NCBI GenBank assembly: GCA_963771515.1
Contig: CAVYTG010000001.1
Span: forward strand, 19,091 to 83,090
Direction: 5' to 3'
DNA: 64,000 nt
Origin: an uncultured Gammaproteobacteria bacterium
GTDB taxonomy: Bacteria > Pseudomonadota > Gammaproteobacteria > CAVYTG01
The notes under the pieces are model-generated. The model searched no databases. It saw nothing but the letters and a program-made list of their open reading frames with translations, and was not told the origin of the DNA. This document shows, one piece after another, positions 63,585 to 64,000 of this stretch. Every line of letters starts with the position of its first letter. The first letter of the stretch is position 1. The position numbers were made by a program, and so were the translations under genes.

Positions 63585-63659
63585 TAAATTAACCGCTCTC
63601 CGTCATCAACTATGTTGTTGGGTAAGATTTAACCACCCTCCGTCATCAACTATGTTGTT
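63585..63659. repeat. Imperfect 40-bp-period direct repeat at the IS110 end
   Basis: CTCCGTCATCAACTATGTTGTT occurs identically at 63598-63619 and 63638-63659. Confidence 0.85.
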
Positions 63660-64000
63660 CGCTAAACTCTAAAGAGTTAATTTTAGCATTAGCGATGATA
63701 ATGATTTTACGCATAAGAGCAGTTAGAGCCACCATTTTCTTTTTCCCTTGAGCAATTAGTTTTTCATAGAAGATTTTCAAGTGAGAGTTGCTATTACAGG
63801 CAGCCATAGCTGCCATAAATAAAATATTCCGAACATGAACTCTTCCACCACGAGTTCTTCGATAACCTTTATGCTGACCACTTTCACAGGGAAAAGGAGC
63901 CAAGCCACAAAGGCTTGCAATTTTTCTTCGATTAAGCTGGCCCAGCTCAGGAAGTAAAGCGATTAAAGCATTGGCAATAATATTGCCTATACCAGGGATA
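63646..64000 (-). mobile_element. IS110-family transposase/recombinase, C-terminal part (continues beyond the window)
   Basis: Open frame from 63999: IPGIGNIIANALIALLPELGQLNRRKIASLCGLAPFPCESG...GGRVHVRNILFMAA...GKKKMVALTALMRK...*. Confidence 0.92.

What the first reader, a model, noticed from the sequence alone, without database searches (positions are those of the whole stretch)
63585..64000. IS110 (bridge-recombinase family) inserted into the family B palindrome, with a duplicated junction
Seen: the transposase stop (TGA, 63648-63646) abuts TTAACCACCCTCCGTCAT (63629-63646), identical to 9404-9421, the left flank of the intact family B repeat, which continues TGCGAGG instead. A second copy of flank + IS tip (63585-63619) lies exactly 40 bp away. 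Established: IS110 elements such as IS621 use a bridge RNA to target REP-like repeats and have very short right ends. Inference: this element's target is the ...CCCTCCGTCAT/TGCGAGG site, so it predicts a new bridge-RNA specificity. The tandem junction may record repeated insertion/excision or slippage.
Basis: partly seen in the sequence, partly recalled or inferred. Interest (0 to 1): 0.65.

Follow-up and report, generated by a model that had tools for sequence, protein, structure and literature searches.

The report
IS110 element inserted in REP repeat
The window ends in the tail of an ordinary IS110-family, bridge-RNA-guided insertion sequence sitting at its preferred site in a short host palindromic repeat; its guide RNA, recovered from another copy, matches that site, and the nearby "second junction" most likely belongs to the host repeat rather than being a scar of this insertion.

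Summary
63647-64000 (minus strand) is the last 354 nt of an IS110-group element. Its stop codon straddles the element's end, followed by an AT core (63645-63646) and the outer arm of the "family B" palindrome.

I recovered the full 317-aa transposase (P0262) and a collapsed 1145-nt copy of the element (L014) from a public assembly of the same strain. P0262 has the DEDD and Transposase_20 domains and matches IS621 at E 2e-29.

The 186-nt leader of L014 folds into a two-loop bridge RNA. Loop 1 carries CUCGCAAU and GUCGUCAU. The crossover is at AT, not after CAT. In six relatives the same loop positions match their own flanks.

The left flank of this copy lies beyond the window and could not be read.

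The "second junction" (63589-63619) is not explained by local slippage or re-insertion. An IS-free family B copy at 9383-9421 carries the same unit (88% over 42 nt). It is therefore a right-end-like stub belonging to the host repeat, and its origin is unresolved.

Verdict: a new member of a known kind, of modest interest.

The parts
63647..64000 (-). Last 354 nt of the IS110-group element: transposase codons 201-317 plus the right-end tip ..AACAACATAGTTG. The element is predicted to run to about 64788, outside the window.
   Evidence: 100% identical to L014 786-1139. Transposase_20 hit. Full protein P0262.
63646..63648 (-). [quoted passage not shown] The right non-coding end is 0 nt.
63645..63646 (.). 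Core dinucleotide AT, the crossover point.
   Evidence: Every RE junction read in the relatives is (A/G)ACATAGTTG-AT (ACATACTTG-AT in L004). The LE junction is AT-TGTAAGT in L003, L004, L006, L007 and L009, and GT-TGTAAGT in L015. Both target guides end or start with AU.
63629..63644 (-). Right target flank RT1 (GACGGAGGGTGGTTAA on the minus strand), the outer arm of family B. It is identical to 9404-9419.
   Evidence: The reverse complement of the RTG is ATGACGAC; the observed flank is ATGACGGA, 6 of 8.
63620..63628 (-). Spacer (ATCTTACCC on the minus strand) between RT1 and the right-end-like stub. It corresponds to TTTACCT at 9397-9403.
63605..63619 (-). Right-end-like stub ('ghost'): AACAACATAGTTG + AT, identical to the true tip plus core.
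63589..63604 (-). Second RT-like unit (GACGGAGAGCGGTTAA), matching RT1 at 14 of 16 positions.
9416..9427 (-). Intact, unoccupied target CTCGCA-AT-GACG in the left arm of the complete family B palindrome. It is the only exact copy in the window.
   Evidence: (0.07 expected at up to 1 mismatch).
9383..9396 (-). Right-end-like stub at an IS-free locus: AACAAATAGTTG + AT, followed by CCAGGCAGG.
21132..21143 (-). Near-target in a family B arm, 1 mismatch (CTCGCAATGACA), unoccupied.
46847..46858 (-). Near-target in a family B arm, 1 mismatch (CTCGCGATGACG), unoccupied.
48194..48205 (+). Near-target in a family B arm, 1 mismatch (CTTGCAATGACG), unoccupied.
9521..9532 (+). Near-target in the right arm of the 9.4-kb family B palindrome, 1 mismatch (CTCGCAATGGCG), unoccupied.

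Best explanation
The end of the window is the right end of an IS110-group insertion sequence of about 1142 bp. It has a 189-nt left end that encodes a bridge RNA, a 317-aa DEDD/Ser recombinase, and no right non-coding end.

By analogy with IS621 (inferred, not tested here), the recombinase and its bridge RNA pair one RNA loop with the element's joined ends, ..ATAGTTG-AT-TGTAA... The other loop pairs with a host site, CTCGCA-AT-GACG(AC). The strands are exchanged at the shared AT.

That host site is the outer end of a family B (REP-like) palindrome arm, and this copy landed in such an arm just downstream of the WD40 gene.

The second flank-plus-tip copy 40 bp away is a pre-existing part of the local repeat. 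An IS-free family B copy also has a unit of [arm end - short spacer - right-end-like 12-13-mer - AT]. That unit is either a decayed relic of an older insertion of this IS lineage that has since travelled with the repeat, or native repeat sequence that the IS end resembles. It was not produced by this insertion. The confidence of 0.85 applies to the identity of the element and its target; the account of the stub's origin is much less certain (about 0.5).
For: Shown:
- Transposase_20 on the window fragment.
- The full protein P0262 carries PF01548 and PF02371. It scores 186 bits on NCBIfam NF033542, 'IS110 family RNA-guided transposase', against a cut-off of 140.
- P0262 aligns to the IS621 transposase 8wt6 at E 2e-29 over residues 6-307, with the GID, ETTG, TDSID and ESG motifs aligned.
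- L014 is a collapsed copy of the element from an assembly of the same strain. It is 100% identical to the window over 360 nt. L001, from the same run, is 100% identical over 9557 nt.
- The leader (L014 1-190) folds at z = -5.4 into a 5' hairpin plus two stem-loops with internal loops.
- An alignment of seven leaders gives the same two-loop consensus, with 8 compensatory pairs.
- The left target guide equals the element's own left flank at 7-8 of 8 positions in 6 of 6 relatives. Non-cognate pairs give 2-6 of 8.
- The right target guide matches the right flank at 6-7 of 8 in 4 of 5 relatives, and at 6 of 8 in the window.
- In L004 the donor guide GUAUACUUG covaries with the tip CATACTTG.
- The L014 unitig stops 4 nt beyond the AT core (5 nt after the stop codon), so copies diverge there.
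- The cluster holds 3 protein variants on the 2.0-Mb contig, so there are several copies.
- For the stub: 63605-63646 matches IS-free 9383-9421 at 88% over 42 nt. ATAGTTGAT occurs only three times in the window, each next to a family B arm end.

Established knowledge: the bridge RNA mechanism, the guide definitions and REP targeting (PMC11208160).
Against: - The left junction of this copy was not seen. The claim that the far flank is CTCGCA-AT is inferred from the guide RNA and from relatives.
- The first 3 nt of the left end (TGT) are inferred by homology and from the donor guide UUACAAU. L014 starts at AAGTT.
- One relative (L007) has a poor RTG/right-flank match, 3 of 8.
- No Rfam family matched the leader.
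- The 9.4-kb stub is only modestly significant on its own: the best local match to the IS end scores 15, reached by 6 of 200 shuffles.
- The 22-nt perfect identity between the stub and the true junction at 63.6 kb is better than a 'native look-alike' reading would predict.
- A 7-mer, TTTAGCG, recurs just inside the IS tip and just after the second RT unit. This hints at a tandem history that the explanation does not account for.
Confidence: 0.85

Rival explanations
1. The second junction is a local by-product of this insertion. It would come either from a tandem duplication or slippage of the right-end junction after the IS arrived, or from a first insertion 40 bp away that was later mostly deleted.
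For: - The period is 40 bp, with 22 nt identical between the two copies.
- TTTAGCG occurs just inside the IS tip (63660-63666) and again just beyond the second unit (63582-63588). The region therefore reads as about 2.2 units of [TTTAGCG-tip-AT-arm end].
Against: - The unit made of arm end (16 of 16 identical), spacer (TTTACCT against ATCTTACCC) and tip-like 12-mer sits beside an intact, unoccupied target at 9383-9421.
- The differences between the two 63.6-kb units are clustered in the spacer, which a recent duplication would not give.
- None of the relatives examined shows such a duplication.
Confidence: 0.15
2. The stub is a working alternative right end, like the B' box of ISPpu9. The recombinase could excise either from the true tip or from the stub. 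The element would then sometimes move with 40 bp of captured repeat. The IS-free unit at 9.4 kb would be what remains after excision from the inner end.
For: - The stub plus AT plus the next 7 nt are identical to the true right junction, so the same bridge RNA loops would read it.
- ISPpu9 forms several kinds of circles from repeated end boxes and leaves solo modules (PMC12288879).
- In L004 the true right end lies about 200 nt beyond the stop codon, with a target-like REP arm in between.
Against: - The L014 unitig ends 4 nt beyond the AT core, so not all copies carry the 40-bp extension.
- The sequence after the 9.4-kb stub (AT-CCAGGC) is a poor match to this element's right target guide.
- There is no left-end-like (A') box, unlike ISPpu9.
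- No circle data are available.
Confidence: 0.15
3. The element really ends at 63660, and the 13-mer CAACTATGTTGTT is host repeat sequence into which the ORF happens to run.
For: The same 13-mer occurs 40 bp away, and a 12-mer version occurs at the IS-free 9.4-kb locus.
Against: - The 13-mer and the following ATGACG are inside the collapsed multi-copy contig L014.
- (A/G)ACATAGTTG-AT ends every relative from other hosts; L004 has the variant ACATACTTG-AT.
- The donor guide GAAUAGUUG in loop 2 reads this tip and covaries with it in L004.
Confidence: 0.03

Closest known systems
IS621 (E. coli), the IS110-group bridge recombinase with solved structures (PDB 8wt6; PMC11208160, PMC11208158)
   Same: - Same two-domain recombinase, E 2e-29 over the full length.
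- Long left end encoding a two-loop RNA, with the target loop first and the donor loop second.
- Guides include the core.
- Minimal right end.
- Inserts in a REP-type palindrome.
   Different: - Distant protein; identity was not computed.
- The core is AT rather than CT.
- The target is CTCGCA-AT-GACG rather than ATCAGGCCTAC.
- The RTG appears to be about 6-8 nt rather than 4.
- The stop codon overlaps the core.
- The host is an undescribed gammaproteobacterium.
ISPpu9 and ISPpu10 (Pseudomonas putida KT2440), IS110-group elements in REP sequences (PMC12288879)
   Same: - Site-specific insertion into REP repeats at a shared dinucleotide.
- The IS end resembles sequence at the target.
- Repeated right-end boxes (B/B') occur next to the element, and solo modules occur elsewhere in the genome.
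   Different: - Here the extra unit is only 40 bp.
- It has a B'-like tip but no A'-like left box and no sRNA gene.
- No evidence was obtained that it moves.
Unnamed relatives found here: P0121/L015 (metagenome), L003/L005/L006 (Legionella-like MAG and metagenomes), L004 (Babeliales MAG)
   Same: - Same clade, 57-69% identity in the C-terminal 117 aa.
- Same donor ends, TGTAAGT.../...ACATAGTTG-AT (ACATACTTG-AT in L004).
- Same leader architecture.
   Different: Each has different target guides. L003 and L006 read GAAGCA-AT-CCAG, the inner end of a similar palindrome arm. L015 reads a tRNA-like gene. L004 reads GCGAGG-AT-GAC.
IS1111 group (for example IS1111 of Coxiella, IS4321/IS5075)
   Same: Same recombinase family, and also site-specific for repeats.
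   Different: IS1111-group elements have a short left end, a long right end that carries the RNA, and 7-17-bp sub-terminal inverted repeats (PMC11208160). This element has the opposite layout and only a 3-bp AAC/GTT repeat.

Membership tests
IS110 family, IS110 group (bridge recombinase elements) | [quoted passage not shown] | tested here: met
   P0262 scores PF01548 at E 8e-24. D11, E56, D98 and D101 lie in the motifs GID, ETTG and TDSID, which align with the same motifs of IS621. That these are the catalytic positions rests on prior knowledge.
IS110 family, IS110 group (bridge recombinase elements) | C-terminal Tnp domain (PF02371) with the conserved serine | tested here: met
   Window fragment E 7e-16. 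P0262 E 6e-17. ESG (S240) aligns with ESG of IS621. NCBIfam NF033542 scores 186 bits against a cut-off of 140.
IS110 family, IS110 group (bridge recombinase elements) | Long non-coding left end and short right end | tested here: met
   L014 has 186 nt (plus 3 inferred) before the ATG. The stop codon overlaps the core, so the right end is 0 nt.
IS110 family, IS110 group (bridge recombinase elements) | Left end encodes a structured RNA with two internal loops | tested here: met
   Single-sequence fold at z = -5.4. The consensus of 7 leaders has 24 pairs, 8 of them with compensatory changes. No Rfam family matched, so this rests on architecture, not on a curated model.
IS110 family, IS110 group (bridge recombinase elements) | Loop-1 guides match the left and right target flanks, including the core | tested here: inconclusive
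   Right side: met at 6 of 8 (ATGACG) for this copy. Left side: the flank lies outside the window. The guide CUCGCAAU equals the family B arm at 9420-9427 at 8 of 8. Relatives: 7-8 of 8 on the left in 6 of 6, and 6-7 of 8 on the right in 4 of 5.
IS110 family, IS110 group (bridge recombinase elements) | Loop-2 guides match the element's own right and left tips | tested here: met
   GAAUAGUUG (L014 114-122) matches the tip ..ATAGTTG. UUACAAU (150-156) is the reverse complement of AT+TGTAA, as seen in the relatives' left ends. Covariation is seen in L004. The first 3 nt of this element's left end are inferred.
IS110 family, IS110 group (bridge recombinase elements) | No terminal inverted repeats, only a 2-3-bp sub-terminal repeat around the donor, and no duplication beyond the core | tested here: met
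   AAC..ATAGTTG-AT-TGTAA..GTT. L007 and L015 have GAC/GTC instead. The feature is described in PMC11208160.
IS110 family, IS110 group (bridge recombinase elements) | Circular intermediate with a junction promoter, and RNA-dependent recombination | not testable with these tools
   No sequencing runs were served for this sequence. By eye, the joined ends would give TTAGCG-17 nt-TAAGTT, a weak sigma-70-like pair. This is inference only.
IS1111 group | RNA in a long right end, with 7-17-bp sub-terminal inverted repeats | tested here: not met
   The right end is 0 nt and the repeat is only 3 bp.
ISPpu9-type modular element (A-B plus A'-B' module) | An adjacent module bounded by a left-end-like (A') and a right-end-like (B') box that share the core with the IS | tested here: not met
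   A B'-like box is present at 63605-63619. The sequence after the core is the target arm (GACGGAGG), not a left-end-like TGTAAGT. No left-end-like sequence occurs elsewhere in the window apart from a chance hit inside an ORF.

The most novel reading that the evidence does not exclude
The 40-bp unit is a functional second right end. The recombinase can use either tip, so the element occasionally carries a piece of the host repeat with it and leaves right-end stubs behind when it excises from the inner tip. On this reading the IS110 element would itself be reshaping and spreading variants of the REP-like family that it targets. Solo stubs such as 9383-9396 would be footprints of that traffic.
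Probability: 0.12. Interest if true: 0.5.

Novelty: new member of a known kind. Interest (0 to 1): 0.3.

Why it matters
It adds one more natural bridge RNA/target pair: an AT core, the target CTCGCA-AT-GACG, and an apparently long right target guide. It comes from a clade of small (317-321 aa) bridge recombinases found in poorly known, probably host-associated bacteria.

The clade keeps one donor sequence and varies only its target loop, so it is a tidy natural example of reprogramming. This does not change what is known about IS110 elements.

The one open point is the right-end-like stub inside the host repeat. It could show how these elements and the repeats they target shape each other.

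Tried and rejected
- **Exact 24-mer of the IS in genome contigs:** no hit.
- **Protein-guided scans:** 3 genome and 9 metagenome loci, all relatives at 69% identity or less. None was the element itself.
- **Reading past 64000:**
  - The WD40 protein is not on record.
  - The Lon-like protein gave only a 9.5-kb Logan contig that stops at 58.6 kb.
  - P0381 and P0382 are not on record.
  - So the left flank of this copy stayed out of reach.
- **Sequencing-run tools:** no runs listed, and run accessions are not accepted.
- **First protein search with the 117-aa fragment:** it returned only 98-204-aa fragments. A chimeric query, made of a relative's N-terminus plus the window's C-terminus, was needed to pull out the true full-length protein.
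- **Rfam on the leaders:** no bridge RNA family. The only hits were weak ones from REP-like palindromes to WsnRNA46 and miRNA models, all below gathering scores.
- **Left-end-like ATTGTAAGTT at 13899:** rejected as chance. It lies inside a 624-aa outer-membrane-protein ORF.
- **The 9.4-kb composite (9340-9656) as an IS110-derived MITE:** I looked for a left-end-like start (CCCTA-AT-TGAAAG) and a right-end-like stub. It has only 7 of 8 at the left and no leader-like sequence, so the idea is unsupported.
- **Simple tandem duplication of the junction:** rejected as the main explanation because of the 9.4-kb unit.

Full report
**1. The observation**

The 18-mer TTAACCACCCTCCGTCAT is at 63629-63646 and 9404-9421, and at 63589-63606 with two mismatches. 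Nothing else in the window matches at up to 3 mismatches, against 0.05 expected.

The repeat finder reports a 40-nt tandem, 63589-63628 and 63629-63668, 85% identical. Within it, 22 nt are identical in both copies.

The minus-strand reading frame that runs off the window ends with TGA at 63648-63646. Its 117 residues hit Pfam Transposase_20 (IS116/IS110/IS902) at E 7e-16.

**2. Recovering the whole element**

- An exact 24-mer of the IS was absent from the genome collection.
- Protein-guided scans found only relatives at 69% identity or less.
- The first protein search with the fragment returned only short proteins.
- A full HMMER scan showed that relatives are about 319 aa long.
- I then queried with a relative's N-terminus joined to the window's C-terminus. 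This returned P0262, a 317-aa protein with no source shown, on a 2,004,778-bp contig. Its last 117 residues are those of the window.
- Its cluster holds two more variants on the same contig, one differing by a single residue and one truncated. The genome therefore has several copies.
- Looking up P0262 gave L014, a 1145-nt contig from a public run. That run holds the same strain: L001 from it is 100% identical to the window over 9557 nt.
- L014 786-1145 is 100% identical to window 64000-63641.
- L014 looks like the collapsed multi-copy element. It ends only 5 nt after the stop codon (..CATAGTTGATGACG), so copies appear to diverge from that point on.

**3. The protein**

- P0262 has DEDD_Tnp_IS110 (E 8e-24) and Transposase_20 (E 6e-17).
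- It passes NCBIfam NF033542, "IS110 family RNA-guided transposase", at 186 bits against a cut-off of 140.
- It aligns over its full length with the IS621 transposase of PDB 8wt6 at E 2e-29.
- The GID, ETTG, TDSID and ESG motifs align, giving D11, E56, D98, D101 and S240.

**4. The ends and the core**

Relatives with visible flanks (L003, L004, L006, L007, L009, L015) all start at TGTAAGT. All relatives whose right end was read finish at (A/G)ACATAGTTG; L004 has ACATACTTG. In every right junction read, AT lies between the tip and the flank. At the left junction it is AT in five of the six and GT in L015.

The crossover is therefore at an AT core. In the window this is 63645-63646, so the stop codon TGA is two bases of the element plus the A of the core. 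A 3-bp inverted repeat brackets the donor (AAC...GTT). It is GAC...GTC in L007 and L015. This matches the short sub-terminal repeat described for the IS110 group (PMC11208160).

**5. The bridge RNA**

L014 1-190 folds (z = -5.4) into three parts:
- a 5' hairpin;
- a stem-loop whose internal loop is GUCUCGCAAUA on one side and GUCGUCAUCAA on the other;
- a second stem-loop.

Aligning seven leaders gives the same two-loop consensus, with 8 pairs kept through compensatory changes.

By the published definitions (PMC11208160):
- the 5' side of loop 1 (LTG) has the sequence of the left target plus core;
- the 3' side (RTG) is the reverse complement of core plus right target;
- loop 2 does the same for the element's own right and left tips.

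That is what is seen here. The LTG equals the element's own left flank at 8, 8, 7, 8, 8 and 8 of 8 positions in the six relatives, against 2-6 of 8 for non-cognate pairs. The RTG matches the right flank at 6-7 of 8 in four of five relatives; L007 is the exception at 3 of 8. In loop 2, GAAUAGUUG reads the tip and UUACAAU reads AT+TGTAA. In L004 both the guide (GUAUACUUG) and the tip (CATACTTG) have changed together.

For the window's element the guides are CUCGCAAU (L014 48-55) and GUCGUCAU (71-78). The right flank seen in the window, ATGACGGA, matches at 6 of 8. The predicted left flank, CTCGCAAT, is exactly what precedes GACGG in the intact family B arm at 9416-9427.

The left junction of this particular copy was not seen.

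CTCGCAATGACG occurs exactly once elsewhere in the window, at the intact arm. It occurs four more times with one mismatch, all in family B arms, against 0.07 expected.

**6. The second junction**

Written in the orientation of the element, the two loci read:

- 63.6 kb: IS..TTTAGCG-AACAACATAGTTG-AT-GACGGAGGGTGGTTAA-ATCTTACCC-AACAACATAGTTG-AT-GACGGAGAGCGGTTAA-TTTAGCGC..
- 9.4 kb (no IS): ..CTCCTCGCA-AT-GACGGAGGGTGGTTAA-TTTACCT-AACAAATAGTTG-AT-CCAGGCAGGAG.. followed by the family A repeat.

The two are 88% identical over 42 nt (E 9e-8) and align over about 82 nt. The unit [arm end - spacer - tip-like 12-13-mer - AT] is therefore part of the repeat next to an unoccupied target. This argues against slippage or re-insertion at the 63.6-kb locus after this IS arrived.

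The 9-mer ATAGTTGAT occurs only three times in the window: at the true junction and at these two stubs.

On its own, the 9.4-kb stub's resemblance to the last 22 nt of the IS is modest. The score of 15 is reached by 6 of 200 shuffles. Its position is what makes it notable.

The tip ACATAGTTG is conserved in relatives from other hosts with different repeats. The IS end therefore did not originate from this genome's repeat. The stub is more likely a decayed relic of this IS lineage, or a look-alike.

Other family B arms also continue natively with ..GACGGGTGAATAGTT.. (48.2 kb, 9.5 kb) or ..GGGTGAGCAGTTGATCC.. (21.1 kb). An ATAGTT-like motif is thus common at the arm's outer edge.

Two things remain unexplained. 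The first is the perfect 22-nt identity at 63.6 kb. The second is the recurrence of TTTAGCG just inside the IS tip and again just beyond the second unit.

A known parallel is ISPpu9. There, repeated right-end boxes (B and B') let the recombinase form several circles and leave solo modules (PMC12288879). The present unit lacks the left-end-like box of that system. The L014 contig also shows that not all copies carry the 40-bp extension. I therefore rate a working second right end as possible but unproven.

**7. Comparison and verdict**

This is a canonical IS110-group bridge-recombinase element. It has the right protein domains, a long left end with a two-loop RNA, guides that read its ends and its target, an AT core, and no right non-coding end. 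It is not of the IS1111 layout. Like IS621 and ISPpu9/10, it targets a REP-type palindrome.

The host is an undescribed gammaproteobacterium. The closest relatives of its SmpB that carry an organism name are 66% identical or less.

The element is a new member of a known kind with its own target specificity. The origin of the right-end-like stub in the host repeat is the only open question.

Noticed in passing
L015 1540-1580 and 2760-2800 (also L016, L017): The closest full-length relative (P0121) sits inside what looks like a tRNA gene on the opposite strand. The left flank is TGGTGTGCCCGACAGGATTTGAACCAGCCG and the right flank is ATCGCTACTTGTGGGCCATAGCCC. Its left target guide CCAGCCGU matches that flank at 8 of 8. 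The left junction reads GT rather than AT.
   Followed up: partly
L004 4364-4570: In the Babeliales relative the true right end (CAACATACTTG-AT-GACAAAAGG) lies about 200 nt after the stop codon. The stretch in between holds an intact target-like REP arm (GCGAGA-AT-GACAAAAAGG), as if flanking repeat had been taken into the element.
   Followed up: partly
window 9340-9364 and 9632-9656; also 21092-21110, 46788-46809, 48090-48106, 50389-50406, 58604-58628: A second short repeat ("family A", TTAGGGCGTGTCATCCATTAAT) forms a 25-nt inverted repeat, 96% complementary, that brackets the whole 9.4-kb family B palindrome. It recurs at gene ends. It shares CGTGTCAT with family B arms, and in the element's orientation it reads ..ATTG-AT-GACACG.., like a junction.
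   Followed up: partly
window 58783-63555: A 1590-aa ORF with a long run of near-identical WD40 repeats. Its exact product is not on record in the protein-position index, although neighbouring genes are. The public short-read assembly breaks just upstream, at the 58.6-kb repeat.
   Followed up: no
L004 3074-3231: The REP-like palindrome next to the Babeliales element gives weak, sub-threshold Rfam hits on both strands to Wolbachia sRNA 46 (38 bits against a gathering score of 65). That family may itself be a REP-type palindrome.
   Followed up: no
L014 1-28: The collapsed contig starts at AAGTT, three bases short of the TGTAAGT start seen in relatives. Positions 1-28 are a perfect 28-nt palindrome, which extends to 30 nt if the preceding base is T. 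This may be why the assembly graph breaks there, and it leaves the first three bases of the left end unverified.
   Followed up: partly
L003 and L006 left flanks; L005 1030-1300: Legionella-like relatives insert at the inner end of very similar palindrome arms (..GAAGCA-AT-CCAG..). The window's element uses the outer end of the arm (CTCGCA-AT-GACG). The IS-free stub at 9383 is followed by AT-CCAGGC, an 8 of 8 match to the right target guide of those relatives rather than to that of the window's element.
   Followed up: partly
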